A stretch of 64,000 nt of DNA from positions 30,286-94,285 of IMG/VR virus record IMGVR_UViG_3300030012_001865; one strand, given 5' to 3'. The notes below the pieces were generated by a model. That model searched no databases. It had not been told where the DNA came from and worked only from the letters and a program-made list of their open reading frames with translations. This DNA is from a virus. Position 1 is the first letter of the stretch; each line of letters starts with the position of its first letter. The position numbers and the translations under genes were made by a program. Shown one piece after another: positions 2,978-64,000 of the stretch.

Positions 2978-4429
2978 TTATACTGCAGAAGAGTAAATCA
3001 ATTCAGCACAAGACATTGGGTTCTGAATAAGAACACCTTGTTGAGCTTGAGCAAATAATTGGTAACCATCTACAGGAGACGAAGAACCTGATGAGAACGA
3101 AGTGTTAGGTCCTAACGGTGAAGTTGAACCAGCAACGTGCCACATTAATTCTTTACGTCCTTTAGGATATACTCGTCGGATATTGTTTTCTCCACCAGAA
3201 GTACCCATGTTAAGGATAGTGTATCGGTAAGACTCAGTGTATCCACCTTTTGGATGTGGTACACGGTTACGGATTTCATCATCATACAATGGTAAGTGAA
3301 CTAGAGTAAACTTGATACCTTGTGGTCCCATGTATTCTCTGTACTGACCTTGGAATGATAAGTTTTGTCCTGAACCACCAATACGCTTAGAGTCTAATGG
3401 TTGGAATCTTGCAGCGTGGTTTTCAAGAGCTCTGTGGAATTGTACCATACCTCTTTCACCTGTAAACGCTACAAAGTGACGTTGATCTTCTGGAAGTAAG
3501 TTAATTGATAAGTTCAATAAAACATCTTCTAAATAATCAATTGTAAAGTCTGTATAGTGGAACTTGTAAGATGGAGAAATTTGCTCACGTAAACCTGCAC
3601 CTTCAACAATAGCAGATCCAGAAGCACCCATCATATCATAAGTACCATTAACTTGTTTGTTAGACTTAGAGAACCAAAGCATACGCTCTTTCTCTTTCAT
3701 CCACTGACACATGAATTCGTATTCAGCATACTGAGTCCAGATCTTTGTAGTCTTATTAGATTTAGGATCCATCATCTCAATAACTAAAGGACGTTGGTGC
3801 ATGTTACCAGGAATAGTGTAAGTCTTAGATAAGAAAGACATTGCATTACGCATTTTGAATGGAGAACTGTAATGAGTTTCACCGTAAGTTCTATTCAAAG
3901 TTCTTTCTTGTGGAGAGTATTCTTTACTTGCACGTGCTCCAGCAGAAATTAAACTTGGAGGAATAAAATCTGCAGCATTTGAAGTCATCAAAGAACAAGG
4001 GTATACATAAATAGACCCTTCCATGTAAGGCTCTTGCATTACACGAACAGAAGTTTCACCGTCATCTAAAACTAGTTTATCAGACATAGCGAAATATTTT
4101 TCTGCCATTCTAATGTTTACGATAGCTCCGTATTGTCCAGGTTTAGCAGAAAGTCCGCCTCCACTATAACCTTGTATAACAACTGCTTTTTCGTCGTCCC
4201 CTTTTAGGTACCACTCAAAATCGTTGTCTGTGTCAAGCTCTTGCTCTCCACCACCTACAGATAGGAAGTAATCCATACCTGCATACTGATTCATACCGAA
4301 TACTCTACTGATGATATTAGATACCAAAGTAGGCTCGGCAGCGAATACGCTTCCTAGGTGGTTCTCAGTTGTTAAGCCAGACCAGCTCTTAGGAGCGTAC
4401 AATTGTAATGAACTAATTGTGTTTGCCAT
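2978..4429 (-). CDS. Major capsid protein (crAss-like, HK97 fold)
   Basis: 483 aa with GLTTENHL, GAGLREQI, TGERGM..F and HLPLYDD motifs typical of crAss-like MCPs; follows portal and scaffold. Confidence 0.92.
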   Translation of the reverse strand: MANTISSLQLYAPKSWSGLTTENHLGSVFAAEPTLVSNIISRVFGMNQYAGMDYFLSVGGGEQELDTDNDFEWYLKGDDEKAVVIQGYSGGGLSAKPGQYGAIVNIRMAEKYFAMSDKLVLDDGETSVRVMQEPYMEGSIYVYPCSLMTSNAADFIPPSLISAGARASKEYSPQERTLNRTYGETHYSSPFKMRNAMSFLSKTYTIPGNMHQRPLVIEMMDPKSNKTTKIWTQYAEYEFMCQWMKEKERMLWFSKSNKQVNGTYDMMGASGSAIVEGAGLREQISPSYKFHYTDFTIDYLEDVLLNLSINLLPEDQRHFVAFTGERGMVQFHRALENHAARFQPLDSKRIGGSGQNLSFQGQYREYMGPQGIKFTLVHLPLYDDEIRNRVPHPKGGYTESYRYTILNMGTSGGENNIRRVYPKGRKELMWHVAGSTSPLGPNTSFSSGSSSPVDGYQLFAQAQQGVLIQNPMSCAELIYSSAV

Positions 4430-4473
4430 TTTTAATTAATTTAATTATTACTTGTTGTTTATATAAATAGCTC

Positions 4474-15044: not shown

Positions 15045-15100
15045 TGCGTAAGCATAATCAACAACAATTATTTATTAATCAGTTAAAATTTAAAAGAAAA

Positions 15101-20172: not shown

Positions 20173-20258
20173 TATACAAAACTTTCTCAACGATGTTAAT
20201 TCAAAAGACACAGAGAAAGACATTTCTGATACGTCCCTCAGGTCGTAGCACAGATTTT
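20088..20258 (+). CDS. Small coiled-coil protein (56 aa), not in track
   Basis: A-rich leader AAAGAAAATG; MSVEENKERLDRHEKVIEKLIDQIAKLQ; overlaps both neighbours. Confidence 0.4.
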
Positions 20259-21050: not shown

Positions 21051-21051
21051 T

Positions 21052-21991: not shown

Positions 21992-22000
21992 TATAAATGT

Positions 22001-24099: not shown

Positions 24100-24275
24100 T
24101 GGAAGAACAAGAAACCATTAAGTGGGGATTCTTTGATGGACACCCCCAATCAATTAGAAGTAAAGAGCATCAAGAGTATCTTATAAAAGAATACAACAAG
24201 AATAAGCCTCTTGAAGAACAAGTAGATAATATTACAGAATTTTTATTAGCTATAAAACAAGAAAAAGAAGATTAA
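24099..24275 (+). CDS. Small hypothetical protein (58 aa), not in track
   Basis: TAATG coupling at both ends; MEEQETIKWGFFDGHPQ... Confidence 0.6.
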   Translation: MEEQETIKWGFFDGHPQSIRSKEHQEYLIKEYNKNKPLEEQVDNITEFLLAIKQEKED

Positions 24276-24955: not shown

Positions 24956-24972
24956 TTTTAAAAGAGAGAAAA

Positions 24973-25527
24973 ATGTACGGAAGTAACGTAGAAAGTAACA
25001 GTACTGGCGGTGTAATGCCAGAAGTAGGTATCGTAGAGAACTGCGAGCTAACAAGTGTAACAATGAACACAGACAAAGGTGGTAGACTTGACTTCGAGTT
25101 TAAGCAGCCTAATGGTGCAACAGTAAAACATGCCGAGTTCCCTGCCAATCCAGACTATGGTGATGTAGAGAAACAAGCTACAGATGTATCACGTCGTGTA
25201 AAACATATTGCTACTAAATTTATGCCTGAGTCAGAGTTTGTGATTACAGATGTAAATAGTTTTGAAGAGTATGGCCACAAGGTTACAAATTTGTTTGGTC
25301 AGAAATATGCTGGTAAAAAGTTTAGAATGTTATTTATCTACAAAGGTAAATATGTGTCTCTGCCTAAGTATCCTAACTTTATCGAAGGTATGGAGACACC
25401 TGCAGAGAAGACTAATATCTATATTTCAGACTACAACAAGAAGAAACTTGTTAAGCCTGAACCAGATGCGGCTCCAGTAACACCAGAAACAGTAATGAGT
25501 ACAGGTGGTGCTGAAATGCCGTTCTAA
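24973..25527 (+). CDS. Putative ssDNA-binding protein
   Basis: Between AAA ATPase and primase; C-terminal tail ending EMPF, SSB-like. Confidence 0.55.
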   Translation: MYGSNVESNSTGGVMPEVGIVENCELTSVTMNTDKGGRLDFEFKQPNGATVKHAEFPANPDYGDVEKQATDVSRRVKHIATKFMPESEFVITDVNSFEEYGHKVTNLFGQKYAGKKFRMLFIYKGKYVSLPKYPNFIEGMETPAEKTNIYISDYNKKKLVKPEPDAAPVTPETVMSTGGAEMPF

Positions 25528-26600
25528 TGTACGGTAGCCGTGTAGTAGAACTTAGTGATGAGGAGATTCTAAGCAGGATTAGCTGCTTAGACATCTTCTC
25601 TTACTATATAGGTAAAGATTTTAAATATGGTAGAGCTATATGTTCTCCACTCCGTAAGGATAAATCACCTTCTTTTACTATCTTTAAGCACAATAGTGGT
25701 AAGTATTTTTTCAAGGATTTTAGTACAGGTGAATCAGGCGACTGTTTTACTTTTCTTACTAAGCTCTTTGGTTTGAGACGATTTGATACATACAGACTTG
25801 TAGATAATGACTTTCAGCTTGGAATATCTACTACAAACTTTAATACGCCTACCAGACAATATGTAGGTGAGCGTATGAAAGAGTTGCAGAATATAGAACC
25901 ATCTACTACTACTATACAAATTAAATCACGCCCTTGGAATGGGCAGGAGGATAAAAATTTCTGGTCTAAATATGGAATATGTTGTAACATCCTTAATAGA
26001 TTTCACGTCAGACCCGCAGAACACGTGTGGGTTAATGATCGCCTCATTGTTAGCGCTAATAGGTACAATCCTATATATTCGTATGATTTTGGGGAAGGAA
26101 AAATGAAAATATACCAGCCATATGGCAAATACAAATGGCTTAGTAACACTAGTGCGTCGGACCTACAAGGTTTGAGCCAACTGCCTGATAGCGGAGACAC
26201 ACTAGTGATTACTAAATCATTGAAAGATGTTATGTGTTTGAGTATATGGGATATACCTGCAGTGGCACCCTCGTCAGAAAGTTGTGTCATTCCTGCAGAT
26301 GTTGTCAAGAATTTATATGACAGATTTGCACGAATATACATATTATATGACTTTGACCGCACTGGCGTAGCTTTTGCTAATCAACATAGAAAGAGGTATG
26401 GATTTATACCATTATTTTTTACTAATGGAAAATTTAATACCTTTGACTACGGAGCGAAGGATTTGTCAGACTTTATAGCTAACAAAAGTCTTAGACATGC
26501 TGCAGAATTAATAGAACACACATGCCAAGAGGGATATTCATACCAGGAAACGTACCGTCAAGTAAGAACGGTAGAAGATGGACAGGAAGGTACTTTATAG
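25527..26600 (+). CDS. dnaG: DNA primase (crAss-type DnaG)
   Basis: N-terminal CSPLRKDKSPSF...FKDF..G..GD; TOPRIM ITKSLKDVM, YDFD..G, KDLSD. Confidence 0.88.
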   Translation: MYGSRVVELSDEEILSRISCLDIFSYYIGKDFKYGRAICSPLRKDKSPSFTIFKHNSGKYFFKDFSTGESGDCFTFLTKLFGLRRFDTYRLVDNDFQLGISTTNFNTPTRQYVGERMKELQNIEPSTTTIQIKSRPWNGQEDKNFWSKYGICCNILNRFHVRPAEHVWVNDRLIVSANRYNPIYSYDFGEGKMKIYQPYGKYKWLSNTSASDLQGLSQLPDSGDTLVITKSLKDVMCLSIWDIPAVAPSSESCVIPADVVKNLYDRFARIYILYDFDRTGVAFANQHRKRYGFIPLFFTNGKFNTFDYGAKDLSDFIANKSLRHAAELIEHTCQEGYSYQETYRQVRTVEDGQEGTL

Positions 26601-26908
26601 TTTCTAAACAAACTCAACGATACTACAAGAATAGTAAAAAGTATTGGGTCGAGTATAAGAAAGAATTCAAAAAATTATTAAAGGGAAAAGATTCACAAAA
26701 CAAAGCGCCGTATCGAATTACGTTTAAGTTTGTACGCAAGAGTAGACATAAGTTTGACTACATAAATCCTGCACAGACTGTACAAGATCAGATGGTAAAA
26801 TTCGGGTGGATAACTGATGATAATGCAGAAGAAATGATTCCTATATTCTTAGAGTTTGAATACAATAAAGATAACCCAGGAGTTTATATTAACGTTTTAA
26901 AATCATAA
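26522..26908 (+). CDS. RusA-like Holliday junction resolvase
   Basis: IPGNVPSSKN ... FDYIN..Q...D.MV..GWITDDN. Confidence 0.7.
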   Translation: MPRGIFIPGNVPSSKNGRRWTGRYFIVSKQTQRYYKNSKKYWVEYKKEFKKLLKGKDSQNKAPYRITFKFVRKSRHKFDYINPAQTVQDQMVKFGWITDDNAEEMIPIFLEFEYNKDNPGVYINVLKS

Positions 26909-26910
26909 TT

Positions 26911-27216
26911 ATGACAATACAATACACAGAAGAGTTTAAGACAAAGTGCTTTAACTATCTTAGACACTTCATGGATATTAGGTTACTGATGTCTGCTATA
27001 GATAATAGCAGAGATAGCGTTGTAAGATATTATCTCGAGAGAGCACTAGATGATCCAGAACTGTACGTGGATCATATGGCTGACGACGGAGATCGTATGG
27101 TTGCAAATGCTAAAATACATGCTCATGCACAGCGGCAAGAGCTATACAATGAATACATGGAATTATTAACTAAAACACTAGACAAACAAAATGTCCGAAG
27201 AAAATTACTACGGTAG
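26911..27216 (+). CDS. Hypothetical protein
   Basis: 101-aa ORF in operon. Confidence 0.6.
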   Translation: MTIQYTEEFKTKCFNYLRHFMDIRLLMSAIDNSRDSVVRYYLERALDDPELYVDHMADDGDRMVANAKIHAHAQRQELYNEYMELLTKTLDKQNVRRKLLR

Positions 27217-28183
27217 AGAAGAAATCTCTAACAGCGATTTAAATGAGTTAAAAGTATCTCCTCGCAGATTTGTTATGCGAAAACAAAGAGAGATGCAAAC
27301 AAAAAGTGCCGCTTTAGAACTTGGTACTCTTATTCATAGATTTACGCTAGAACCTGACACATTTATACTAGCAGACGTAGAGCCTGTTGGAGGTAAAATG
27401 GGTGAGTATATTAAATCTTATTATGAGTTAGAGAAAGTTGGTACGCCAGAAGATAAAATAGCTGAGATGGCGTATCAGATGTCTGGTTATAAACCATCTC
27501 ATTCTAAACCAGAAACTATTCTTAAAAGCTTTAAAAACAAAGAAGAAAATGTAAAGTTTTATGAGTTTCTAAAAAATGCAGAAGGAAAAATAGCGCTTAC
27601 ACCAAAAGATAAGCAAATTGTAGAAGGATGTCTAACATCTTTACGCGGTCATGTAGTATCTAATAAGTTATTATTTACAGAGTATAATGAAGAATCAAAC
27701 ACAGAAGCTTTTAACGAGCGAGAGATATTCTTTAAACAATATGATGTAGATTGTAAATCTAAATTAGATAGAATTATTGTAGATCACGATAATAAAACAG
27801 TGACTATTGTAGATCTTAAAACTACTAGTAGCCAAGTTTATGGTACATGCGAACCATTGCCAAAAAAGCTTAGAACTGGTGTACTAATTAGAGATTGGCA
27901 CGTTACAGGTTTTATGTATGCCTGCATAAACTACTCTTATTATAGACAACTAGCATTTTATATAAACGCTGCTATTGCTGAATACCCAGACTATGGGGTA
28001 GAAGCTTTTATTGTTGCTGTAGATACAAAAGGTTCGTATGATGTAGCAGTATATAAATTACCTCAAGAATGGCTTGATGAAGGTAATGAAGAGATAAAAT
28101 GTCTTTTAACCGAGTTAAAACATTATAAAGAAGCAAATAACTTTAGTGTAAAACAAGGATACGAAGAGGTTGTATCATATTAA
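27191..28183 (+). CDS. RecE/ExoVIII-like PD-(D/E)XK exonuclease
   Basis: ISNSDL, GTLIH...LEP, KSKLD, VDLKTT, YYRQLAFY. Confidence 0.82.
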   Translation: MSEENYYGREEISNSDLNELKVSPRRFVMRKQREMQTKSAALELGTLIHRFTLEPDTFILADVEPVGGKMGEYIKSYYELEKVGTPEDKIAEMAYQMSGYKPSHSKPETILKSFKNKEENVKFYEFLKNAEGKIALTPKDKQIVEGCLTSLRGHVVSNKLLFTEYNEESNTEAFNEREIFFKQYDVDCKSKLDRIIVDHDNKTVTIVDLKTTSSQVYGTCEPLPKKLRTGVLIRDWHVTGFMYACINYSYYRQLAFYINAAIAEYPDYGVEAFIVAVDTKGSYDVAVYKLPQEWLDEGNEEIKCLLTELKHYKEANNFSVKQGYEEVVSY

Positions 28184-28190
28184 GTAGATT

Positions 28191-28766
28191 GTGATGGGGA
28201 AGATTGATATTGTGCCGAAACAAATGCTTAACAAGAGCTATACCTACATTCTTCCTATGCTCAGCACAAAACTAGATGTTGTTAAACAGAATCTTATCAA
28301 TGCTTATATAGGCGCTGATGAGTATTCTGGATACGACAATCATATTTTTTTGCTGTATAGATATGTAGGTAATCCAAGATTTATAGAATACGAAGATTAC
28401 TTAGAACATACTGTATTGTTTAAAGCTAAATACGATCCTGATAAATATCATGTAATGTTTATTTTTGATGTTCCTAAAGATTATCAGAGAGAGTATGATT
28501 TATTTAAAAAAGGCAAATATTCTAAGTTTTCTCAAGAATATAAAATCTTGATATTTAAATTTCATCAAATTTTAGACGAAAATCATAAGGTGGCTAAAGT
28601 TCTTTATAGACATCCAGATCTTAGAGAAGAGATAGAAGACAGATTAGATACTGTACTTCCTGAAGACTCTGAGCTATCTTCTGTACCTGATCTTTCTATA
28701 GAGATGTATACAGAAGAGATGAAAATAACAGACCCTTTAGTTCCACCAGAAAATCCATTTGAATAA
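28191..28766 (+). CDS. Hypothetical protein
   Basis: 191 aa; YILPML ... DLFKKGKYSKFS motif. Confidence 0.65.
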   Translation: MMGKIDIVPKQMLNKSYTYILPMLSTKLDVVKQNLINAYIGADEYSGYDNHIFLLYRYVGNPRFIEYEDYLEHTVLFKAKYDPDKYHVMFIFDVPKDYQREYDLFKKGKYSKFSQEYKILIFKFHQILDENHKVAKVLYRHPDLREEIEDRLDTVLPEDSELSSVPDLSIEMYTEEMKITDPLVPPENPFE

Positions 28767-31175
28767 ATGAAACTACAACAACAACACCACGTCGACGAAG
28801 TTATCGGCGTACAGAAACAACACAAGTTCAAGATCACGGACGGTTCACAGGCTATCATTATGGATAGCCTGATTAATTTATACTCGGATCCTATTGGTTC
28901 GATTGTCCGTGAGATCACTTCTAATTGTATCGACGCAAATCGTGAGCGCGATCTTAAACTAGCTAAGAAGATTCCTATGGAATCCGAAGACGACACTAGT
29001 TTCTGGTCTGATAAGCAAACGGTTTGCATCGAATACATTACGAAGAACACCATCCTAGGCGTGGATGAGTGTATGATGTTCCACGATTATGGCTGCGGTC
29101 TATCTCAGAAGCGTGTGCAAGATGTATTTACTACATTCGGCGCATCTACAAAGAGAGACAACAACTATGAGATCGGTGGTTTCGGCCTCGGTGCAAAGTC
29201 ACCTTTGGCTTATGCAGATACCTTCTATGTATCTAGTAGACACAATGGTACTGAAACATATTATATGATTTATCGTAACAACGATAACGTTCCACATATG
29301 GATCAGGTATATCAGGCATCTACAGATCAGCAGAATGGTACTACTATTATTGTACCTATTAAACATCGATATGATGCTTCTGACTTTAGAGATGCTATTA
29401 GTAATCAGCTTGCATACTTTGACAATATTGTACTAAAGAATGTTGAAGAAGGTATAGGTGCAGTTCGTAACTATTATCATCATAAAAGTGTAATAGAAGA
29501 AACAGATTCTTATATTATTACTAATGAAGGTTCAGACCCATGTCTTCTTGTAGGTAGAGTTAGGTATCCTATTAACTGGGATTTACTAAAAGGTGTAGAC
29601 AAGTATGATTACAATGCTAGTGTAGCTTTTAAGTTCCAGATTGGTGTGCTTGATCTTGTACCTTCTCGCGAAGAGATACGATACACTCCTAAAACTATTA
29701 CACTTATTCAGACAGCTCTTAATAATGTGAGAAAACAGTTTAAGGACGATTTATCAAATAGGTACTCTGATCTTACAGACTATATTGAATATCTACTTGC
29801 TATATCTAATATAGGTAATGGTGGTTATCGATATTCATGTCTTACAAGTAGTGATCCATCAGCTGTAAAAGCTAGTATGGCACAACTAACAGCTTATGAT
29901 GTACCGTACAAGCCTAATGAAGATCTTACTCCTGGTGCTCAGTACAATGGTGGTAATGCCTTTCATCAAATCTTTGATGGTATATCTGTCTACCACTGTA
30001 AGAAAACTAGTAACTCTTCTGCTATAGGCGGCGAGACTATATACAACAAAGAGATATTTGACTGGCCTACTTTCTTTAATGCTATGAAAGAGGTGGAGCA
30101 TATGTATTATGTACAAGGTAACTTTAATAAACTTAAAAGTTATGGTATTATAAATGATAGAGAAGAGGGATCTTTTGTAGCATTTAAAGCAGACGTACAT
30201 AAGATAGGTGCTAAACTTGATGCTAAATCTCACAATCTTAGCGACTCTCGTACTGCAGATGTAAAACGTATGGTATTTAATATTGTGACTAGAGCCCTTG
30301 GCAGGTCTAAGTTTAAATTATCATATGATGATGTAGAAGATGCAGTGCTTGATGCGGCCCATGGTGATGTGGTTGATAACAAGACCCGTCGTAAGATAAA
30401 CAAGATGGTGTTTGCTCGCGATGCTTATGTTAAAAATACTGGTTATGAGGTAGGCATTAAGCATTCTAATAACGAGTATAAGATTTCTGATCTCCAGGAG
30501 AAGCTGCAGGCAGAAAATCCTACTTTAAAAGCTGTTGTCTATGCTGAAACTAAAGATATATGTGAACTTGATAAGGTTACTAAGATACTTAGCAGTGATC
30601 AAAATAATATCCACAATGCATATGGTGGTTATGATCAGTACTTCACTAAAGGACCTTACAGAGTTCTAAAAGTATCTAAAGATGTAGCAAAAGAGTTTAA
30701 AGATTTAGAAGGATTTATAACAGCACATGAGTTTATGAAAAGCCCAAAACACCTGCAGAGATTTATTACTGCACAGCAAATCGGTAAGTATATAGAAAGT
30801 TTTAAATTCTTATCTAACTATAAAGAGTATGATGGACCATTGTATGGTTTATATTGTTCTCTTAATAAGTATCATAATGACAATACCAACAGTTGTTGGC
30901 GTTGTGACGATGATATGAAACCTATAGTTAAAGAGATTATGAAACTAGATATACCAGACGATGTTAGGTATAGTATGAAGATGATAAATAAGCTAGAAGA
31001 AGTGATAGAATACTCACAAGGTTTAGACCTTTTGAATCATGTAGACTTTGTTCCAAAAGCTAGGAAATCTATAGAAGATTTCTTATCTTTAAAGGATAAA
31101 ATGCCTGACAATCAACAAGTTAAATTAACATTAACAGCTAAAAATCAAAATGAAAATGAACTACTTAGTAGCTAA
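28767..31175 (+). CDS. rIIA: rIIA-like protein with N-terminal GHKL/HATPase domain
   Basis: LYSDPIGSIVREITSNCIDA, DYGCGL, STKR..N..IGGFGLGAKSP, PSREEI.Y; followed by an rIIB-like gene. Confidence 0.85.
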   Translation: MKLQQQHHVDEVIGVQKQHKFKITDGSQAIIMDSLINLYSDPIGSIVREITSNCIDANRERDLKLAKKIPMESEDDTSFWSDKQTVCIEYITKNTILGVDECMMFHDYGCGLSQKRVQDVFTTFGASTKRDNNYEIGGFGLGAKSPLAYADTFYVSSRHNGTETYYMIYRNNDNVPHMDQVYQASTDQQNGTTIIVPIKHRYDASDFRDAISNQLAYFDNIVLKNVEEGIGAVRNYYHHKSVIEETDSYIITNEGSDPCLLVGRVRYPINWDLLKGVDKYDYNASVAFKFQIGVLDLVPSREEIRYTPKTITLIQTALNNVRKQFKDDLSNRYSDLTDYIEYLLAISNIGNGGYRYSCLTSSDPSAVKASMAQLTAYDVPYKPNEDLTPGAQYNGGNAFHQIFDGISVYHCKKTSNSSAIGGETIYNKEIFDWPTFFNAMKEVEHMYYVQGNFNKLKSYGIINDREEGSFVAFKADVHKIGAKLDAKSHNLSDSRTADVKRMVFNIVTRALGRSKFKLSYDDVEDAVLDAAHGDVVDNKTRRKINKMVFARDAYVKNTGYEVGIKHSNNEYKISDLQEKLQAENPTLKAVVYAETKDICELDKVTKILSSDQNNIHNAYGGYDQYFTKGPYRVLKVSKDVAKEFKDLEGFITAHEFMKSPKHLQRFITAQQIGKYIESFKFLSNYKEYDGPLYGLYCSLNKYHNDNTNSCWRCDDDMKPIVKEIMKLDIPDDVRYSMKMINKLEEVIEYSQGLDLLNHVDFVPKARKSIEDFLSLKDKMPDNQQVKLTLTAKNQNENELLSS

Positions 31176-32163
31176 AGTAACACCTAGTGATGTTACAGTA
31201 ATTATTGATGGAAAGCACAAGAGAATCCGAAAGGATTCTCCTGATGCTGAATTGGTTATTGCTCTCGTAAAGCAATACAATTCTTGTAAATTTCTTGAAG
31301 AGAGACAAGATATTATTACAAAGATAGAAGAACTTTGCAATCCTGCAAAGAAAATCGAATTTAATTCTGATGGTAGATTTGAATTCGATGGTAATTCAGC
31401 TATGTATCTTAAAGGTACAAGCGATCCGATACCTGAGTTTCTTGCTAAAAAGCTTTTGGAGTATATCGACAAAGGTTTGAATGTAGAAGCTCTGGTTAAC
31501 TTCTGGAAGAACACTTTGCTTAACCCTGATAAAGGTGTTAGACAACAGTTGTTCAGCTTCTTAGAACATAATGGTCATCCTATTACAGACAAAGGTTATT
31601 TCTTGGCATACAAAGCTGTTGCTGTCAAACGTAAGTTTGATGTAGAAACAGGTGAGGAGATAATTAATGTTCGTTATGATGAAGAGACAGGTGAACGTGT
31701 AGAAGAGAAACTATCTCAGTCTATGACGTTCAAGCCTTTTCATTCTGGCTCACACGGTATGACTATTAAAGTCGGCACGCCTATAACAATGCCGAGAGAA
31801 GAGTGTGACTCTGATCCTGATGTAACATGTTCAGCAGGTCTACACGTAGGTTCTATGGCGTATGTTCACGATTTTGGACATAGTGATAGAGTAGTATTGG
31901 AGGTTTTAGTTAGTCCTCGTAATGTTGTAGCGGTGCCATCTGACTACAATAATACGAAGATGCGTACTTGTGAGTACTATCCTATTGCTATTACAAATGG
32001 TGAGAATGAGAACATTTATCTCGAATCTGATTATGCTGCCCATGATCATGAAACTATGCAAGACGACATCGTTAAATACGAGGAGTCTAAGAGAGATGTA
32101 ATCAAGGAAATCGAGCGAGAGCTTGCAGAACGGAAAGCAATAGCTGAAGAATTGGTATCATGA
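31150..32163 (+). CDS. rIIB: rIIB-like protein
   Basis: LVNFW...LNP, ITDKGYFLAYKAV, MPR..CD.D...TCSAGLHV, VVAVPSDYNNTKMRTCEY. Confidence 0.85.
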   Translation: MKMNYLVAKVTPSDVTVIIDGKHKRIRKDSPDAELVIALVKQYNSCKFLEERQDIITKIEELCNPAKKIEFNSDGRFEFDGNSAMYLKGTSDPIPEFLAKKLLEYIDKGLNVEALVNFWKNTLLNPDKGVRQQLFSFLEHNGHPITDKGYFLAYKAVAVKRKFDVETGEEIINVRYDEETGERVEEKLSQSMTFKPFHSGSHGMTIKVGTPITMPREECDSDPDVTCSAGLHVGSMAYVHDFGHSDRVVLEVLVSPRNVVAVPSDYNNTKMRTCEYYPIAITNGENENIYLESDYAAHDHETMQDDIVKYEESKRDVIKEIERELAERKAIAEELVS

Positions 32164-32840
32164 GCCACACTGCAACTGATATGATTAATACTCGTAACAT
32201 TGCAGTGGATACTATTGGTGAATCCTGGGCCCAGCATTTGGGCTCAGAATTCTCCAAAGAATATATGAAGATATTATCTGCAACTCTTAAACGAGAAAGA
32301 ATGACGCATACTATATATCCTGAACAACAGGATGTATTCAATGCATACATTCATACTCCTTACGACAAAGTTCGTGTCGTAATACTGGGCCAGGATCCGT
32401 ATCACAATGGTGCGGCGGATGGTCTAGCATTTAGTAGTAAGAAGCCTGATTTTGTGCCTCAGTCACTACGTAATATATTTAAAGAGATCGGTTATGAAAC
32501 TAAATATCCTAGTCTAGAGAGATGGGCAAAACAAGGTGTGTTATTACTTAACACTTGTCTTACAGTTCGTAAAGGTTTGCCTAACTCGCATTCTAAAATA
32601 GGATGGCAGAATTTTACTTTTAAAACTATACAATCTTTAAATGATAAAGATCATGTAATATTTATGTTATGGGGTGCACATGCTCAGAAATATGATGAGT
32701 ATATCGATCCTAAACATACCGTATTAAAATGTGCGCACCCATCACCATTCTCCGCTCACAGAGGGTTTTTGGGTAGCGGACATTTTAAATGGATAAATGA
32801 ATATTATAAACAAACAAACCAGCCTACTATAGACTGGTAA
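32160..32840 (+). CDS. ung: Uracil-DNA glycosylase family 1
   Basis: VVILGQDPYH, GLAFS, SLRNIFKE, WAKQGVLLLN, LWG, HPSPFS. Confidence 0.95.
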   Translation: MSHTATDMINTRNIAVDTIGESWAQHLGSEFSKEYMKILSATLKRERMTHTIYPEQQDVFNAYIHTPYDKVRVVILGQDPYHNGAADGLAFSSKKPDFVPQSLRNIFKEIGYETKYPSLERWAKQGVLLLNTCLTVRKGLPNSHSKIGWQNFTFKTIQSLNDKDHVIFMLWGAHAQKYDEYIDPKHTVLKCAHPSPFSAHRGFLGSGHFKWINEYYKQTNQPTIDW

Positions 32841-32842
32841 AA

Positions 32843-32885
32843 ATCTAGCGTGTGTTGTTGATTACTTGTTGTTGTTGTGCTAGAT
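32843..32885 (+). ncRNA. Hairpin with GU-rich loop complementary to the MCP leader
   Basis: ATCTAGCG/TGCTAGAT stem; loop contains ATTACTTGTTGTT, identical to + strand 4447-4459. Confidence 0.45.
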
Positions 32886-32886
32886 G

Positions 32887-32916
32887 TAGGAAAGGGGCCT
32901 TGTGCCCCTTTTTCTA
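32887..32916. terminator. Probably bidirectional intrinsic terminator between the convergent blocks
   Basis: AAAGGGGC-CTTGT-GCCCCTTT with flanking A/T runs. Confidence 0.85.
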
Positions 32917-33363
32917 CTAATCTTGACAAGCTACAAATACTTCAATTTGTATTGTACCACTACTAGATTTTGCAGATATAACATCTATATTAGCTAAACT
33001 TTCTCCTGTACCAAGAGCAGTATCGCCGTCTTCGTGCCCATCCATCATGTTATTTCCTAGTAAGAAATGATCTTCTGATTCTAATTTTACAAAATATTCT
33101 GAATCTGACTGACTTACTCTTAATGTAATGTCTGCAGATCCATCTAAGTTTGTAATACGTAAGTATTGCACAGAGTTATCTTTAAATGTGCCTGCAGATG
33201 CAGCCGAATCAAATTTAACTACGTCTACATATGCTGTACCTACATCCATAATTCTATGTGATACCTCGTTTACAGTTTCAGTGTGTGTATTTGTTGTACC
33301 TCTATCAGTACTACCATCTCCCATAGAGACAGTTTCAGTCAGTGTTATCGTTAAGTTTGCCAT
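32917..33363 (-). CDS. Small beta-rich virion protein, distant paralog C of 8189/8597
   Basis: MANLTITL..., Y..ITNLD, FVKL...FLL, IEVFVA pattern. Confidence 0.55.
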   Translation of the reverse strand: MANLTITLTETVSMGDGSTDRGTTNTHTETVNEVSHRIMDVGTAYVDVVKFDSAASAGTFKDNSVQYLRITNLDGSADITLRVSQSDSEYFVKLESEDHFLLGNNMMDGHEDGDTALGTGESLANIDVISAKSSSGTIQIEVFVACQD

Positions 33364-33499
33364 TGTCTATAATTATATAAATTTGTATTAATCCTAAAAA
33401 AAATTGTACCTCATAATAAGGTGCATACTCTTCTGGTTGGAAGTGTCTTACTCCAAATAATAATCCTTTTGCCCAATTTATTCCAAAAGCGAATTTCAT
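33335..33499 (-). CDS. Small hydrophobic protein (54 aa), not in track
   Basis: TAATG coupling with the upstream cargo gene; MKFAFGINWAKGLLFG...FFLGLIQIYIII. Confidence 0.45.
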   Translation of the reverse strand: MKFAFGINWAKGLLFGVRHFQPEEYAPYYEVQFFLGLIQIYIIIDNGKLNDNTD

Positions 33500-36400
33500 T
33501 AATTGTTGTTACCGTATAAAAATTTAAGAGAGTTTTCTACATCTCTATCGAACTGTTTAAATATAGGTAGTATGTCTCTAAGTTCTTTACCTATCTTTGT
33601 TCTACCTTTTCTTTTACCTCTAGTATAAGTTTCAAAACCTCTTCCAGTTGCTAGTCTCGGTATCTCCTTTCCAAAAAATCTTAAAAATAATTCTATTGCA
33701 TTCTCAAGCATGCTTACAGATGCTGCAGGGCTTCTCATAATTCTTACTAGCTCTACAGGGTTTACATAGAAAGATAATTCAGAATATAATCTACGTACAA
33801 AAAATGATCCGTAAAGTAAAAGTTTTTTCTCATCGTCACTAGGCGCTGCTTTAGCTGCAGCTAGTAATAGTGCACTACTTACTCCTGATAAAATCATTTC
33901 TACAATATATATTGTAGCTCTACGTATATCGCCTCTTTCTCTTTCTGACAAAGTATTCCATCTATCTGCTTTTAGCTCTGCTTTTAAAAGTTCTCCTTGA
34001 CGTATTAGTGTTGACACGTACCTCACAGCTTCTGTAAACATACCAAACTGAAAGTCTTCAGACTGTCTACTATAATCTAGATCATCCATGCGTAGGTCTT
34101 CTCTAGGTGTAAACATTTTATCTGCACCTCTATATTTTTCTAATCCTCCAGGAATTAACCATCTACGCAGGGCAAATGCAGCTCTACCTAGTATATATCT
34201 CTGTGCTAGCGCATTATTTTTGCTAGTATAGTTACCGTTAACATAATAATTTAGTTCAAATAAATGTCGTGTTACTTTAAACTCTGCATCAGCTAAGTTA
34301 TTATTTTTTACATTTATAATCCTTCCTGTTTTAAATACTAGAGCTCCTATGTCTAGTCCTTCTCGAACTTTAAGTTTCTTTTCTTTCGCTTCGTAAATCT
34401 CGTCAAACGACATCGCTTGTTTTCTATCTTTTACGACTTTCCCCTCCTTATTTATATATTGCCCTTTACTGTTTTGTATTTTTATTGCATTTAAAAAAGA
34501 ATACATTAACAAATGTTGTACATAATGTTCTCCCATTTGGTGGAATGCATGCAGTGTACTTTTATCAGCGCTTTGACTAAGTTTAGTTGCAGCCATAAAT
34601 CTTTTTAACGCAGGACTCCAATCTTGCTCTGCCTGAAACCGTTCTCCTAATAAGTTTGTTAGAGCTCCAGGTCTCATTAAACCTATATCTCCTAGTATAT
34701 TAGGTAAATCAATTCCAAATTTGTATTCTGCATCTATTATGTCTCCAAATCCATACTCTACATCAAAGTACATACCGCTCATAGCGCGCATAGATTGTAT
34801 AGTTTTAGATTGAAACACGGAGGCAAGGGCAGAATAATGGTTAAATATAAGCATAGTATCAGATGTCCATGCCATCAAGCTGCTAGCTAATTTATTTAGT
34901 TTACCTGATCCTATATTTTTAACACCATACAATCTATCTTCTATTACAGATGATAGATTTTTGTATACGTTAGAAGCTACACCATCTTCCATTTCAAAAG
35001 ACAGTTTATCCTCACCTTTTACTTTTATTTTCTGCGCTTTCTTTTTTCCCCAATGTGATTTTCCTACTTTACTAGCTCCCACCACTTGTTTTAATGTTTC
35101 TAGTTCTGCTTGTACGTAAGAACTTTCTTCGTAGTTTACAGATCCCCAATAATCCATTAACAATATTGATGGTAAGTCATAAGACTGTTCAGACAAAGGT
35201 ACTTTGTCGTCCTGTCTATAGTATACAGGTATTTTTTGTTGCACTTGGCCGTATTCATTTAGTGTTGTATACATTAGTGCTTTTACCTGTTCCCATTTAC
35301 TTATGTCATCTGAGTTGTCTTGACCCTTTTCATAATAATCAATATCAGATGCTGTAAGTGTAAAGTTATCTTTGTATATTCTTTTTATAGCTGGTATCAG
35401 ACCGTCTTCAAAACTAGTCTCCATTAATGTTTTTTGTATTGCGGGTAATTTTAATCCTCTTCTGTTAGGATACATCTCATCTCTTTCTGTGATCATGTCA
35501 CGAAAGAACCAATACATTTTGTATTCTATTTTATTTTTATTTTTTTCATCAGCAAAGAATGCAAATCTAGGATCTATCCATTTGTCTGCTACATTATATT
35601 TACCAGACTCTTTATCTCTACTTTTTACATTTTCATTGTACCATTCTATGTATTCTTTTTTAGCTTCTATGTATTGGTAACTGTTTATACCATGCTCGTT
35701 CTGAGCTTTTATCATAGGATCTAAAAACTTTTTTCTTTCTGTCCAGAATTCAGGTTTGATTTGGTCTACTAAAAACTTTGTAAGTTTACCACTTTCTTCT
35801 CTACCAATCATGTCTCCCCACAAACTACGCATGTCTCTAGTATTTTTACCTTTAATATACTCAGACCACAATTTTTCTAGTTCTGTAACTTTTTCTACAG
35901 TTCTACGCATTGTTAGATAATCCTTCTTATCTAAAATCTCTGCAGCTAAAGATATTATATCATCTCCCATGTTACGAGCGTCAAGCATGTAGTGTGCAAA
36001 TCCAGATATATCTTTAGGATTATCTTTTAGTATACGCATATAGTTATCTACTTCTGCTTGCCTAATCATATCTGCATTACGCTCCATTTGATCTGCCACA
36101 AACTTAGCTCTAGCTTCTTGATATAGTTTACGTGTTTTAGTTCTACTACCGTCTAGCGCATTATCTTTTAGGCCTTTAGATTTTCTCCATTGTGTGTATG
36201 TTACACCACCTTTTTTAGGATTAGCAAAATCATCTGAGTACATTCTAAAATATGTCCTAGTTACTTTTCCAGGAATAGACCCCCATTTATTTGCAATGGC
36301 TTCTCTAGCTTTAAAATTAAATCTAGATTGTACAGATGCTTTGAGTGCTAGTATTTTTTCAAAATCTATACCTTTACCACCTGTATTATCTTTTGTAACA

Positions 36401-59900: not shown

Positions 59901-61619
59901 TTGTGTTTTACTTCTAGTTTGAGATAAAGTATAATTGAAAAGAGATCCGCTACCTGTTATATCAAAATCTTTAAATCTTGGAAATCTTATATCTCCTACC
60001 CAATTTACAAATCCAGGATTACCTTTTTTATCATACAATACAATACCAAATCTGTAAATTTCATCTCTTTGATACCCTTTATATTTTTCAACGGCAAGAG
60101 GATTTTTATAATCTAACCAGTCCACCCCTACACCACAGTCAGTAGCAGAAGATGGTTTTGTTTCTATAAACGGAGGAGTTGTTGCAGGATCTCCTGACAC
60201 AAACTCGTCTCCATCAAATTCTTTTTTAACAAATCTATAAGAAACATTAGGTCCCGTACCTCCAAGTATATATCCATTATCTTGATACACATATCTTTTA
60301 TCATTATCTGTAACCGCAAGTAAGTTTTCGTTATAAGGATTATCAGCATCTAAAAGTAATTGTAATTGTTCAGCAGTGTAATTCTCTTGATTGTAGTTTG
60401 TAGGATCAAACTCAGTATCACTTACATAAGTTGTAACATTACCTTCACCCATTGGGTGAGTATTTCCATCATCTCTTTTATACCTATATGCTCTAGCATT
60501 AAACTCTAACTCTTCTAAAGGAGTTATAACATTACCTAAAAATAATCTATTATCTTTTGATGTTATTGTTTTAGCTCTTTTTATATTGTAGGTAAATGAA
60601 GTTATTTCTGCTAAGCTTATTAAAGAAACAATGTCAGTGTTAGTACTGTGTAATGCTGTAATAGTAGGACTACCAATAGTTTTTCTACTAAATATGTAAG
60701 AGCTGCTAACTCCCTCAATAGAAGATTTATAAATAGCAGCAAATTCAATAACACTATAATCTGTGTCTACATTTTCTACTTGTAACCTTACACCTTTATT
60801 ACAAATAGTTCCTGGTGCTACACCTTCATACTGACTAATATCTTGTGGATCTTCTGTGTAAGTCCAGTAAGGATCTCCTAGTTCAGATGCTGCTACTACA
60901 TGTAAAAATCCTGTAAAAGGAGAGAATCTACTTTGAGATCCTGATTTAGTAACAAGTCTGTATGCATACTGATACATTCCTGCAGGAAGACTACCGCTGT
61001 TTACAACTTCTAATATTTCAGGTTTACTAAATGTAGTAGACGGAGATAACTGAAGATCGTCAGGCTGAACTGACATTACATTTGGGTCAGCTACATTAAT
61101 AGTTCTAACTGGATTAAAGTTATCTGTAAAATATAATCTTTGCACCCCTTGTGTTTCAAATCTACCCACAGCTTCTATAGGATGCTGCACACTAAGATTT
61201 AAAAATTGATTTTCATATATTAAATTTATGTTAGTAACTTCGTCTGTTACAAGATCAAAAGTTATTTTAAATATACCTCCTCCCGCCATAGATGTGGGAT
61301 TTAGTTCTCCTGTTCCAACTATGTTTCCTGGGTTTTTATCAAAATTATATGTAGCAAAAATATACAGATCATTTCTAATAGAAGCATGTCCTATAGGCAC
61401 TGCAGGAACAGGGTCATCTCCAGGAGTACGTGGAGGTAATTCTAAATCAAAAGAAAACAAATTACCTTTAACATTAACATTAATACCAGACTCTCCTGGA
61501 TTTTCGTTTGCTATAATACGTATATTTTTAGAGTCTAAGTAGCTCCCTTCTACAGGACTTAAATCTCCAGGGTCATTTAGTATACCTTTTGTAAATGTAT
61601 TTACTTGTTGATCTCTCAT
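56973..61619 (-). CDS. Tail muzzle/stabilization protein (P22 gp10-like)
   Basis: 1548 aa; NTFTKG..D, LYFTD..NP.R.IN, KDNRLF.GN, GYQRDEIYRFGIV, GGD.F, YGPIN, RERTW, RLRDKY. Confidence 0.85.
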   Translation of the reverse strand: MRDQQVNTFTKGILNDPGDLSPVEGSYLDSKNIRIIANENPGESGINVNVKGNLFSFDLELPPRTPGDDPVPAVPIGHASIRNDLYIFATYNFDKNPGNIVGTGELNPTSMAGGGIFKITFDLVTDEVTNINLIYENQFLNLSVQHPIEAVGRFETQGVQRLYFTDNFNPVRTINVADPNVMSVQPDDLQLSPSTTFSKPEILEVVNSGSLPAGMYQYAYRLVTKSGSQSRFSPFTGFLHVVAASELGDPYWTYTEDPQDISQYEGVAPGTICNKGVRLQVENVDTDYSVIEFAAIYKSSIEGVSSSYIFSRKTIGSPTITALHSTNTDIVSLISLAEITSFTYNIKRAKTITSKDNRLFLGNVITPLEELEFNARAYRYKRDDGNTHPMGEGNVTTYVSDTEFDPTNYNQENYTAEQLQLLLDADNPYNENLLAVTDNDKRYVYQDNGYILGGTGPNVSYRFVKKEFDGDEFVSGDPATTPPFIETKPSSATDCGVGVDWLDYKNPLAVEKYKGYQRDEIYRFGIVLYDKKGNPGFVNWVGDIRFPRFKDFDITGSGSLFNYTLSQTRSKTQAAQGTPYQETGSQSGAAFSGWSAEGELVSFTEGINTTLNAGYGRNDTIDTHSLYVLGIEFTVNLPQSIKNKVSGYSIVRVERTDIDRSVFGQGMGSYLYLFASQGENIGSTFRLAHSAYMATWAHNNGDTSERTDHGMIWSTHMSMDSPDFVFKGEYPTAGACDWVEVAGNLTNGASRNAWENHFLHGGLTEGTDDDYYRKMYSHQMITFNTNINVPYIFGPGNTLENDLASVDFFKPNDARFWASGASLTFDSNLPRGINNVGVEVNGNTDVDVYSVGCDTLFIQFNGNGTRANTGTPYVGSLGSTWLGDVILPNTEDNPIAVTFPYWSYWINPGLFNNQPDPGWNAETYQNQIYFNDGDVGDNNLATSYFDGSTAADVCTCANGAYPAAYERHRVQEKLLLSWRRDIMETQYGGRGYDNRSRNKYINANSFIPVDQEGEPVEVYGGDIFVSFYDFQKLRKWRGGQAPDNNYSNNTSGPTKRHSFSYAIPVESTINLGLRQGYHFAAKNVDTGFTGNETDNHQLDQYIYQNVYSAENDLLEFYPRTLDYVETDQYDSRVLYSDIKVNGDLKDSWKEFRLDNYRDVEGEYGPINKIINFSDNMFFLQDRGVGMLSINPVAVTTTTDQSSLILGTGDVIQDHRYLSTEIGSKHQRSVLATTKGLYWVDILNNAAYRISNEGTLELSRVKGIKSYFESRLENKQFAATNYNSYTGQGTNYGDNAFLYHGITTGYDASNNEVLFSFLERKFVDDGDKGWWELFRTETLVYSETTGSFTSKYSFATPMFINTQDKLLSVRPLNYEFDEAVEEVFRVHDNEIWIHNEIESLTAPRASWYGDVYDSSITFLVNKGPSETKVFDNIEMYTKLTNILGQSGDVNGTWNKLLCTNSYQIVATDLYGPLQLPDITVDEVEEPEEVIQNIKRRERTWKAALPRVIKGGTPLRLRDKYLKINLRYDNKTGGKLQTYYVKTKFRVSKR

Positions 61620-62529: not shown

Positions 62530-64000
62530 TTAAGGTGTTGATTCTATTTCTGCGCTTGTTGTTCCTAAGAATGTACTCCAATCGTATTCTACTACAGTAG
62601 TTACAAACCAATAATTAGAACCAGATATATCGGCAGAACTTTGTATAGATATAGAAACTAACTCAGATGATTCAAAATGTTTAGCGTTATCAAATGCAAA
62701 ATGTAGCACATGACTATCATCATCAGCAGTTACTGTTATAGTTTCTGTTTCTTCTTCTACCCAAGATGCTGTACTAAATGCACTTTGATTTACTGGTCTA
62801 GTATGTATTCCTATCGTTATATCAGCACCAGCAGAGATAAACATTAATCTAAGAGTTAGAGAAACAATTCTACCGTCACAAGGCATAACTACAGCTGTTT
62901 CTTCTTGATATATATAAATTTGTTCGTCTCTTGTTTTAAAAGGTAAATAATGTTTAGTAGTTCCTATGTCATCAAAAAAGTTTTGAAAAAACACTTCTCT
63001 TTGTTTACCTGTTACTATACCTGTAACATTTAAATCTTGAGATATAGTTACTTTATCATCTTCAAATGTAGCTACGGTTACTTCACCACCACCACCTGCA
63101 CTAGCTGTGTTAGCTCTAATCTCAACCGTACCATTTGCAGCTCTATTAGCTAACACTACTTTACCGCTATCAGCACCTAACATAATTCTATTTGTGCCAG
63201 AACCATCAGGATATTGTATAGAAGAAGAAAAGCTGCCTGAATTATTATCGGCTTCTAGTATTATATCAGAGCCAGAGTTCATGTTAAGGTTAGCATTACT
63301 ACCACCAACAGCTATATTACCTCCCGCCATAGTAACAACACCACTACCATCAGATGATATTATTGTATTACCTCCAGAGTCTTTTATGTCGTTACCTGCA
63401 ACAATTATATCTCCTCCAAAATAACTATCACCACCTTGCACATACATAGCATACGAATTAGTAATAGTTTGATTTGTACTTGCTACTGGTGCTCCTTTTA
63501 TATAAATTGTAGAAGCATTTGTAGTTGTTACAGATGAGTTTGTAGCTAATAATCTAGGATTTTCAAAAGTTATGTGATTATAATAACCAGCAGTACCAGA
63601 AGCAGAAGTACTACTATCTGTTATATCCATAGCATCTACGTGTATTGCTACGCCATCTCCACTTGCTGTTACACTTCTATCGCCATCCGTTATTAAACCT
63701 TTCATAGTTATAATACCAGCTAAAGTTTTATCACCTGCTGTTAGGTTTGTAGCTGTATCTGCATTACCTGTAGTATCTTGATTTAGTGTAGGTATATTAG
63801 CAGCATTAATAGTAGCTGTTGCACTTATATCTGTATCCCATCTGTAGTGTTCAGCTGCTACGAAGTTTGCAAGAGAGTCATGATCTATAGTTCCTTGTGT
63901 GGCAACTTGTATTACACCACTGCTATTAACAAACGATGTTGAACCAGTAGTGATACCACCATCTAATTGTAAATTACCTGCTCCAGTTATAGCAGCTATT
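62530..64000 (-). CDS. Tail fibre/receptor-binding protein, start outside the window
   Basis: Frame stays open from 63705 to the window end (IDHDSLANFVAAEHYRW, LNQDTTGNADTAT fibre motifs); Gly/Ser/Thr-rich. Confidence 0.72.
   Translation of the reverse strand, partial: IAAITGAGNLQLDGGITTGSTSFVNSSGVIQVATQGTIDHDSLANFVAAEHYRWDTDISATATINAANIPTLNQDTTGNADTATNLTAGDKTLAGIITMKGLITDGDRSVTASGDGVAIHVDAMDITDSSTSASGTAGYYNHITFENPRLLATNSSVTTTNASTIYIKGAPVASTNQTITNSYAMYVQGGDSYFGGDIIVAGNDIKDSGGNTIISSDGSGVVTMAGGNIAVGGSNANLNMNSGSDIILEADNNSGSFSSSIQYPDGSGTNRIMLGADSGKVVLANRAANGTVEIRANTASAGGGGEVTVATFEDDKVTISQDLNVTGIVTGKQREVFFQNFFDDIGTTKHYLPFKTRDEQIYIYQEETAVVMPCDGRIVSLTLRLMFISAGADITIGIHTRPVNQSAFSTASWVEEETETITVTADDDSHVLHFAFDNAKHFESSELVSISIQSSADISGSNYWFVTTVVEYDWSTFLGTTSAEIESTP

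What the first reader, a model, noticed from the sequence alone, without database searches (positions are those of the whole stretch)
32843..32885. Hairpin at the 3' end of the early transcript displays a loop antisense to the major capsid leader
Seen: after the ung stop and before the terminator is a stem ATCTAGCG(TG)/(TG)TGCTAGAT whose G-U pairs favour the + strand RNA. Its loop contains ATTACTTGTTGTT (32861-32873). The same 13-mer occurs at 4447-4459, inside the 44-nt gap before the MCP ATG. The + strand RNA loop is thus perfectly complementary to the MCP mRNA 18-30 nt upstream of its start. Inference: a 3'UTR-derived trans-acting sRNA that holds back capsid translation during the early phase, suited to SD-less Bacteroidota initiation.
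Basis: partly seen in the sequence, partly recalled or inferred. Interest (0 to 1): 0.72.

Follow-up and report, generated by a model that had tools for sequence, protein, structure and literature searches.

The report
Conserved phage hairpin mirroring start-site tags
A marine crAss-like phage and its relatives keep a small RNA hairpin at the end of the early operon whose G/U-rich loop is the mirror image of C/A-rich tags next to the start codons of several phage genes, the capsid gene among them, so it is probably an untested RNA brake on protein synthesis.

Summary
The hairpin (32843-32885), its 13-mer (32861-32873) and the second copy 18-30 nt before the capsid ATG (4447-4459) are all there.

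The hairpin is real and selected. About 15 related contigs carry it with five different, compensated stems. The loop is almost unchanged although synonymous sites are only 53-85% identical. It always sits just before a + strand terminator.

The capsid match alone is weak evidence. This genome holds 326 exact repeats of 13 nt or more, and the match is (UUG)n against (CAA)n plus five unique bases. It is kept in 7 of 8 genomes; in G001 the loop drifted while the leader did not.

The loop is complementary to more than the capsid leader. It matches C/A-rich tags at 6-9 start regions here. Such matches are enriched at start regions in all 7 hairpin-bearing genomes tested in full and absent from 3 genomes without the hairpin. 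The tag at the rIIA-like gene start varies together with the loop in 13 loci.

My reading is a 3'UTR antisense RNA with several targets. Capsid repression is plausible but unproven, and no transcript was seen.

This scan earlier noted analogous hairpins in other crAss-like phages, on other DNA.

The parts
32843..32885 (+). Stem-loop in the 3'UTR of the early (replication-module) operon
   Evidence: Folds as predicted. Kept in about 15 related contigs with five different, compensated stems. No ORF on either strand, read directly from the sequence.
32851..32877 (+). 27-nt G/U-rich loop, the proposed antisense seed region
   Evidence: 100% identical in relatives whose UDG third-codon positions are 68-85% identical.
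32861..32873 (+). 13-mer of the loop that is complementary to the MCP leader
32886..32917 (+). Intrinsic terminator shared by the hairpin
   Evidence: G+C-rich stem followed by a T-run. In relatives the T-runs of 8-9 lie on the + strand only.
32160..32840 (+). Uracil-DNA glycosylase gene, last gene before the hairpin. It is an optional cassette in this clade.
   Evidence: PF03167, E 4e-19. Absent in G001, G004, G006 and G008, where the hairpin follows the rIIB-like gene directly.
4430..4473 (-). 44-nt leader of the major capsid protein mRNA
   Evidence: 41-44 of 44 positions are identical in most relatives whose MCP third-codon positions are about 68% identical; some lineages keep 35-39.
4447..4459 (-). 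AACAACAAGUAAU in the MCP leader (-30 to -18). This is the longest complement of the loop, at 13 nt.
2978..4429 (-). Major capsid protein gene
   Evidence: phrog_11589, E 7e-102. About 34% identical to crAss-like phage MCPs.
28775..28786 (+). C/A-rich tag at +8 to +19 of the rIIA-like gene (28767-31175), a 12-nt complement of the loop
   Evidence: Present and varying with the loop in 13 loci.
15055..15066 (+). Tag at +11 of a 250-aa early gene, just 3' of a tRNA-like T-arm. It is a 12-nt complement of the 5' half of the loop.
61601..61610 (-). Tag at +9 of the 1548-aa virion gene, a 10-nt complement that includes the unique AAGUAA part
33503..33510 (-). AACAACAA at -11 of a 54-aa ORF. It is part of the one-mismatch copy of the 13-mer (33498-33510).
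62555..62563 (-). AACAACAAG at -45 of the 299-aa gene

Best explanation
The hairpin is an RNA element at the very 3' end of the early (replication-module) transcript. It may act as part of that mRNA or as a fragment of about 75 nt protected by the hairpin and the terminator.

Its open G/U-rich loop works as an antisense seed against C/A-rich tags of the CAACAA or CACACAA type. These tags lie within about 45 nt before to 25 nt after the start codons of a handful of phage genes.

In this genome the best partners are:
- the capsid leader (13 bp, about -14 kcal/mol);
- the first codons of the rIIA-like gene of its own operon (12 bp);
- a 250-aa early gene (12 bp).

The hosts are Bacteroidota, which do not use Shine-Dalgarno pairing. 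Masking an unstructured A/C-rich stretch there would lower initiation. The RNA would then damp or delay the synthesis of capsid and some other proteins until their mRNAs outnumber it.

Shown: the structure, its strand, its conservation, the complementarity and its enrichment at start regions, and covariation at one target.

Inferred: that the RNA accumulates, that pairing happens in the cell, and the direction and timing of the effect.
For: 1. Structure under selection.
- There are five stem versions: the CTAGC type, TTCTCACAAAG/CTTTGTGAGAA, TCCTCACAAGT/ACTTGTGAGGA, CCTCACAAGT/GCTTGTGAGG and TTGGGTA/TACCCAG.
- Changes on both arms compensate each other, around a nearly fixed loop.

2. Loop under selection.
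- 26 nt are identical where synonymous sites are about 70% identical. Neutral expectation is about 1e-4.

3. Strand.
- G-U pairs and T-runs of 8-9 lie on the + strand.
- There is no ORF and no Rfam family.

4. Complement of the loop concentrated at start regions.
- In G000, 9, 6 and 3 of 76 start regions carry a perfect complement of at least 9, 10 and 12 nt.
- Shuffled loops give means of about 1.6-1.8, 0.5 and 0.04. None of 1000 shuffles reaches 6 or 3.
- Only 6 of 916 interior windows carry such a complement (Fisher p 2e-7).
- The same enrichment holds in all 7 hairpin-bearing genomes tested in full (p from 2e-7 to 0.026). It is absent in the hairpin-less relatives G002, G003 and G020 (0/72, 1/94 and 1/71).
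- k-mers in the sense of the loop are depleted at starts (1 of 132 and 0 of 39). This argues for pairing rather than a shared protein site.

5. MCP leader.
- It is the top or second hit in six of seven genomes. It is exact in G000, G011, G012, G006 and G008, and 12 nt plus one G-U in G004 and G007.

6. rIIA-like start.
- A complement of 9-15 nt is present in all 13 loci.
- Cognate pairs are longer than non-cognate pairs (11.0 against 9.7 nt; permutation P 0.0004).
- Loop and tag are both new in G018 (12 nt), extended in L233 (15 nt), and GG pairs with CC in G001.
- The outgroup clade has neither tag nor hairpin.
Against: - No transcript evidence. Metatranscriptome contigs stop inside the UDG gene, before the hairpin.
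- Both partners are low-complexity. A reversed loop keeps about half of the genome-wide signal and most of the length of the rIIA match. Duplex energy does not single out the MCP leader.
- In G001 the loop changed while the MCP leader did not. Pairing at that site falls to 6 contiguous bp, and G001's own loop shows no excess of targets.
- In G018 only the rIIA-like tag matches.
- The whole 44-nt MCP leader is conserved, not the 13-mer in particular.
- The permutation tests are not corrected for phylogeny. Perhaps 2-3 independent events underlie them.
- Gene starts were called by a crude ATG rule.
Confidence: 0.45

Rival explanations
1. The hairpin acts only in cis. Its loop pairs with the start region of the rIIA-like gene 3.4-4.1 kb upstream on the same early transcript. 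This would be a 3'UTR-to-start-site contact, as in the icaR mRNA of Staphylococcus aureus (from my own knowledge). The capsid-leader match would then be incidental, a by-product of (UUG)n meeting a (CAA)n-rich leader.
For: - The rIIA-like tag is the only partner present in all 13 loci and the only one that covaries with the loop.
- In G018 it is the sole strong match.
- In G001 the rIIA match (10 nt) survives while the MCP-leader match does not.
Against: - The MCP leader carries the longest match in most genomes. It includes five non-repeat bases and is kept in lineages with only 84-87% MCP identity.
- Complements of the loop are enriched at many start regions, not one.
Confidence: 0.2
2. The loop is a protein-binding or polymerase signal at the 3' end of the early transcript. 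Examples are a stability element, a site for an RRM-type RNA-binding protein that prefers G/U-rich RNA, or a pause/termination signal for the virion RNA polymerase. The complementarity to start regions would then be a coincidence of low-complexity sequences.
For: - Both halves of the loop are conserved and look like two copies of a UGUUGUUG-type motif.
- Early genes of crAss-like phages are transcribed by an unusual virion polymerase whose signals are unknown.
- The reversed-loop control shows that much of the complementarity is repeat-driven.
Against: - The motif occurs once per genome, and loop-sense k-mers are not found at other operon ends.
- C/A tags at starts occur only in genomes that have the hairpin.
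- Loop and rIIA tag change together.
- phi14:2 ends its early operon with a plain terminator.
Confidence: 0.2
3. The element works as DNA or on the other strand. It could be a cruciform or single-strand hairpin used in replication, recombination or packaging at the convergent junction. Or it could be a minus-strand RNA loop that has the same sense as the tags and acts as a decoy for a factor that binds them.
For: - It sits exactly at the strand switch between the early and virion operons.
- The terminator in this genome is partly bidirectional.
- One relative (G008) has a C-A mismatch that would be a G-U pair on the minus strand.
Against: - G-U pairs in five stem versions and the long T-runs favour the + strand.
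- On the minus strand the hairpin lies behind the terminator.
- No second copy or origin-like repeats lie nearby.
Confidence: 0.07

Closest known systems
GcvB sRNA of enterobacteria and Pasteurella (G/U-rich seed R1)
   Same: - A single-stranded G/U-rich seed pairs with C/A-rich elements in or upstream of ribosome-binding regions of many mRNAs. These elements act as translational enhancers (PMC5900567).
- The loop here even contains UGUGUUG, which is the central GcvB seed.
   Different: - No homology: no Rfam match.
- GcvB is a free-standing chromosomal gene with its own promoter and depends on Hfq. Its seed lies in a linker, not in a hairpin loop.
- Here the element is in the 3'UTR of a lytic phage operon, in hosts that, to my knowledge, lack Hfq.
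3'UTR-derived base-pairing sRNAs (CpxQ, SroC, DapZ, MicL: my own knowledge; CisR, which acts on CTX phage, PMC13250501)
   Same: - Located between a stop codon and the mRNA's own intrinsic terminator.
- The seed is more conserved than its surroundings.
- The targets are start regions of other mRNAs.
   Different: - No processed RNA species has been seen here.
- The element is phage-encoded and appears to target the phage's own genes, including one in the same operon.
c4 antisense RNA of phages P1 and P7 (Rfam RF01695: my own knowledge)
   Same: A phage-made RNA whose hairpin loops pair in trans with sites at the ribosome-binding region of a phage operon.
   Different: - No Rfam match.
- c4 serves immunity in temperate phages and pairs through two loops with one operon.
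- Here there is one large loop, a lytic crAss-like phage, and several candidate targets.
Anti-leader hairpins noted earlier in this scan in other crAss-like phages (e1-5986661, e1-6051901, e1-6025169 and others; AI notes)
   Same: - A hairpin at an operon end by the strand switch.
- A nearly invariant loop that mirrors short tags beside the start codons of several phage genes.
- In one case UUGUG loops face CACACAAC leaders.
   Different: - Those are described mostly at the end of the tail-fibre or virion operon. This one lies on the early-operon strand.
- Look-up by sequence found no similar stretch, so homology is unknown.

Membership tests
3'UTR-derived, terminator-sharing base-pairing sRNA | Lies on the mRNA strand between the stop codon and the intrinsic terminator | tested here: met
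   The stop codon ends at 32840, the hairpin is 32843-32885 and the terminator 32886-32917. Relatives have the same layout, with + strand T-runs.
3'UTR-derived, terminator-sharing base-pairing sRNA | Seed more conserved than the flanking sequence | tested here: met
   The loop is identical in relatives with 68-85% third-position identity, while stems and terminators vary.
3'UTR-derived, terminator-sharing base-pairing sRNA | A discrete, stable RNA species exists | not testable with these tools
   Only assembled metatranscriptome contigs were available, and none covers 32600-33000.
3'UTR-derived, terminator-sharing base-pairing sRNA | Complementarity to target start regions is conserved or covaries | tested here: inconclusive
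   The MCP match is kept in 7 of 8 genomes and lost in G001. The rIIA-like tag covaries with the loop (P 0.0004, not phylogeny-corrected), but a reversed loop does nearly as well.
GcvB (Rfam RF00022) | Match to the family covariance model | tested here: not met
   cmscan of 32500-33200 up to E = 10 lists only chance hits, none of them GcvB.
c4 antisense RNA (Rfam RF01695) | Match to the family covariance model | tested here: not met
   No hit.
Intrinsic (Rho-independent) terminator, for 32886-32917 | G+C-rich hairpin followed by a U-run on the transcribed strand | tested here: met
   GGGGC/GCCCC stem followed by TTTTT. Relatives have 8-9 T.
Anti-leader hairpins of crAss-like phages (earlier notes of this scan) | The loop is the complement of tags beside the start codons of several phage genes, and hairpin and tags are kept together | tested here: met
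   Hairpin-bearing genomes have the tags. G002, G003, G020 and the L385-L391 clade have neither.
Anti-leader hairpins of crAss-like phages (earlier notes of this scan) | Sequence or structural homology to those hairpins | not testable with these tools
   Their sequences are not shown, and the look-up by sequence found nothing.

The most novel reading that the evidence does not exclude
A clade of marine crAss-like phages uses one 3'UTR hairpin as a global 'anti-enhancer' RNA. Its (UUG)n/(UG)n loop pairs with phage-private (CAA)n/(CA)n tags that replace Shine-Dalgarno-type signals at a dozen start sites. The sites include the capsid gene and the rIIA-like gene of its own operon, and loop and tags co-evolve. 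Together with the analogous hairpins noted in other crAss-like phages, this would be a widespread, undescribed layer of translational timing in Crassvirales.
Probability: 0.35. Interest if true: 0.8.

Novelty: new variant of a known kind. Interest (0 to 1): 0.6.

Why it matters
Crassvirales are among the most abundant phages in gut and sea. Their temporal gene control is known only at the level of two polymerases, and no riboregulator has been described for them.

Their hosts initiate translation without Shine-Dalgarno pairing, and it is still largely open how initiation is tuned there. A phage RNA that masks C/A-rich start-site tags would offer a simple, testable handle on both questions through loop and tag swaps in a Flavobacterium reporter.

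It would also extend the GcvB principle, in which a G/U seed acts against a C/A enhancer, to a lytic phage.

If the element turns out to be a polymerase or protein signal instead, it is still a clean conserved marker for the end of the early operon in this clade.

Tried and rejected
- DNA searches of the cultured-phage collection with both regions found nothing.
- Rfam gave only chance hits.
- RNA evidence: six metatranscriptomes held small parts of the stretch, and I laid four of them. Their contigs cover 31500-32610 only and none reaches the hairpin, so nothing can be said about expression of the hairpin.
- RNAalifold on MAFFT alignments failed because the different stems were put out of register. 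I listed stems and compensations directly by script instead.
- Duplex-energy ranking did not discriminate. Long imperfect G-U-rich duplexes form with many leaders.
- I looked for more genomes holding both the hairpin and the MCP leader. Contigs G013-G017 lack the MCP gene, and G018 ends before it.
- I considered that TATAAA before the 13-mer might be a T4-like late promoter, so that the leader would begin inside the target. I found no support and did not pursue it.
- I looked for an antisense partner of the variant leader of G002 (AACAATCGATTAAT). There is none.
- Genome-wide cognate specificity is weak. The loops of G000, G008, G004 and L261 score similarly on each other's genomes, and G001's own loop scores worse on G001 than G008's loop does.
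- phi14:2 has only a plain terminator at the equivalent junction.
I repeated it from the stored loci.

Full report
**What the window is.**
- The window is bases 30286-94285 of a complete 94,285-bp IMG/VR phage genome.
- Its capsid protein is about 34% identical to those of crAss-like phages (phrog_11589).
- The + strand block 13969-32840 is the replication module. It ends with rIIA-like, rIIB-like and UDG genes.
- In the crAss-like phage phi14:2 this whole module is the early class and is transcribed by the virion RNA polymerase. The leftward gene-expression and capsid modules are middle and late, and the capsid mRNA is the most abundant transcript (bioRxiv 10.1101/2020.03.07.982082).

**The observation.**
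- All coordinates hold.
- The hairpin 32843-32885 has an 8-bp stem, which two more G-U pairs can extend on the + strand only, and a 27-nt loop.
- The intrinsic terminator follows at 32886-32917.
- The 13-mer at 32861-32873 recurs once, at 4447-4459, in the 44-nt gap before the capsid ATG. The + strand loop is therefore complementary to -30..-18 of the capsid mRNA.

**Is the match more than chance?**
- A repeated 13-mer means little here. The genome has 326 maximal exact direct repeats of 13 nt or more.
- For this loop specifically, composition-matched shuffles reach 13 nt against any of 73 leaders in 0.85% of trials and never against the capsid leader.
- By duplex energy the capsid leader is second of 73, and 70% of shuffles do as well somewhere.
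- Eight of the 13 bases are (UUG)n against (CAA)n.
- Taken alone, the match is marginal.

**The hairpin is real and selected.**
- About 15 related contigs carry it at the same place. It follows the UDG gene, or the rIIB-like gene where the UDG gene is absent, and it always lies just before a terminator.
- The stems come in five versions with compensated differences. TTCTCACAAAG/CTTTGTGAGAA against TCCTCACAAGT/ACTTGTGAGGA differ at three positions per arm and both have 11 Watson-Crick pairs. There are also a CTAGC type, a TTGGGTA/TACCCAG type and the G001 type.
- The loop is unchanged over 26 nt in relatives whose UDG third-codon positions are 68-85% identical.
- G-U pairs in five stem versions and T-runs of 8-9 put the element on the + strand.
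- There is no ORF and no Rfam family.
- phi14:2 has only a plain terminator at the equivalent junction.

**The capsid leader in relatives.**
- The whole 44-nt leader is highly conserved, not the 13-mer in particular. In most relatives 41-44 of 44 positions are identical where synonymous sites are about 68% identical; some lineages keep 35-39.
- Eight genomes hold both sites.
  - Five have the exact 13-mer at both sites: G000, G011, G012, G006 and G008.
  - Two have GUUAC in the loop, giving 12 bp plus a G-U pair: G004 and G007.
  - In G001 the loop has changed while the leader has not. Six contiguous pairs remain at that site, plus a different 9-nt match at +4..+12.
- Across the family the bases just 5' of the invariant CTTGTTGTTG vary: ATTAC, GTTAC, GTTAAC, GATGC and GTAAGC. 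Only a 9-10-nt core of the capsid match is generally kept.
- A sister lineage (G002) has a different leader and no hairpin.

**The wider pattern.**
- A note from this scan on other crAss-like phages prompted me to ask whether the capsid leader is the only partner. It is not.
- In G000, 9, 6 and 3 of 76 start regions (-50..+30) hold a perfect complement of at least 9, 10 and 12 nt.
  - Shuffled loops give means of about 1.6-1.8, 0.5 and 0.04. None of 1000 shuffles reaches 6 or 3.
  - Only 6 of 916 interior windows hold such a complement.
- The partners are:
  - the capsid leader (13 nt);
  - the rIIA-like start (12 nt);
  - a 250-aa early gene (12 nt);
  - a 70-aa gene (11 nt);
  - the 514-aa and 1548-aa genes (10 nt each);
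  - three more at 9 nt.
- The same enrichment holds in all seven hairpin-bearing genomes tested in full (Fisher p from 2e-7 to 0.026). It is absent in hairpin-less G002, G003 and G020.
- k-mers in the sense of the loop are depleted at starts.
- A reversed loop keeps about half of this signal. Much of it is therefore (UUG)n meeting (CAA)n tags, which are themselves confined to start regions of hairpin-bearing genomes.

**Covariation.**
- The first codons of the rIIA-like gene carry a C/A tag in all 13 loci that contain both the gene start and the hairpin. The tag changes with the loop:
  - the CAACAACAACAC type goes with UUGUGUUGUUGUU loops (11-13 nt);
  - the CAACACACAAAC type goes with UUUGUGUGUUG loops (11 nt, and 15 nt in L233);
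  - CCAACACACA goes with UGUGUGUUGG in G001;
  - a new ACAAACACACAA goes with a new UUGUGUGUUUGU in G018.
- Cognate pairs average 11.0 nt against 9.7 nt for non-cognate pairs (permutation P 0.0004).
- The outgroup clade has neither tag nor hairpin.
- Caveats:
  - The test is not phylogeny-corrected, and perhaps 2-3 independent events underlie it.
  - Reversed loops give 8-13 nt.
  - In G018 the rIIA-like tag is the only strong match.
  - G001's loop has no excess of targets.

**Conclusion.**
- The best reading is a 3'UTR antisense hairpin whose loop pairs with C/A-rich tags at start regions. The rIIA-like start is its most constant partner, and the capsid leader is its longest partner in this genome.
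- The closest functional analogue is GcvB, a G/U seed acting against C/A enhancers (PMC5900567), without homology.
- No transcript was seen. The direction and timing of any effect on the capsid are inferred.
- Rivals are a purely cis contact with the rIIA-like start, a protein or polymerase signal, and a DNA-level or minus-strand role.

Noticed in passing
window 15015-15043 (+): A tRNA T-arm-like motif (GGTTCGATTCC inside TGGCAGGTTCGATTCCTGCATGCTTTACT) is conserved in G001, G004, G011 and G012. ARAGORN calls no tRNA there. One of the C/A tags lies 12 nt downstream of it.
   Followed up: partly
window 32160-32840 and relatives G001, G004, G006, G008: The UDG gene is an optional cassette. In relatives without it the hairpin follows the rIIB-like gene directly. 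The distance from the rIIA-like start to the hairpin is 3.4 kb without the cassette and 4.1 kb with it.
   Followed up: partly
window 32818-32838 (-): A terminator-like hairpin of 9 pairs, with G-U pairs only on the minus strand, followed by TTGTTTGTTT. It lies inside the last codons of the UDG gene, and the CCAG...CTGG ends are kept in relatives.
   Followed up: no
window 52790-52875: A tandem array of the hexamer TAGTAT/TATTAG lies inside the 1613-aa virion gene.
   Followed up: no
L034, L036-L041, L055 (G002), L019: MCP leaders: A sister lineage replaces AACAACAAGTAAT in the capsid leader with AACAATCGATTAAT, which contains the palindrome ATCGAT. It has no hairpin and no intergenic gap at the convergent junction.
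   Followed up: partly
window 31500-32610: Contigs of four marine or aquatic metatranscriptomes from three studies cover the rIIB-like gene and the start of the UDG gene at 85-100% identity. Phages of this clade are therefore present in RNA libraries, although DNA carry-over is not excluded.
   Followed up: no
window, many minus-strand gene starts (e.g. 4429, 1299, 52117, 62518): A striking share of virion genes begin ATGGCA (Met-Ala). I saw this in the start-region lists.
   Followed up: no
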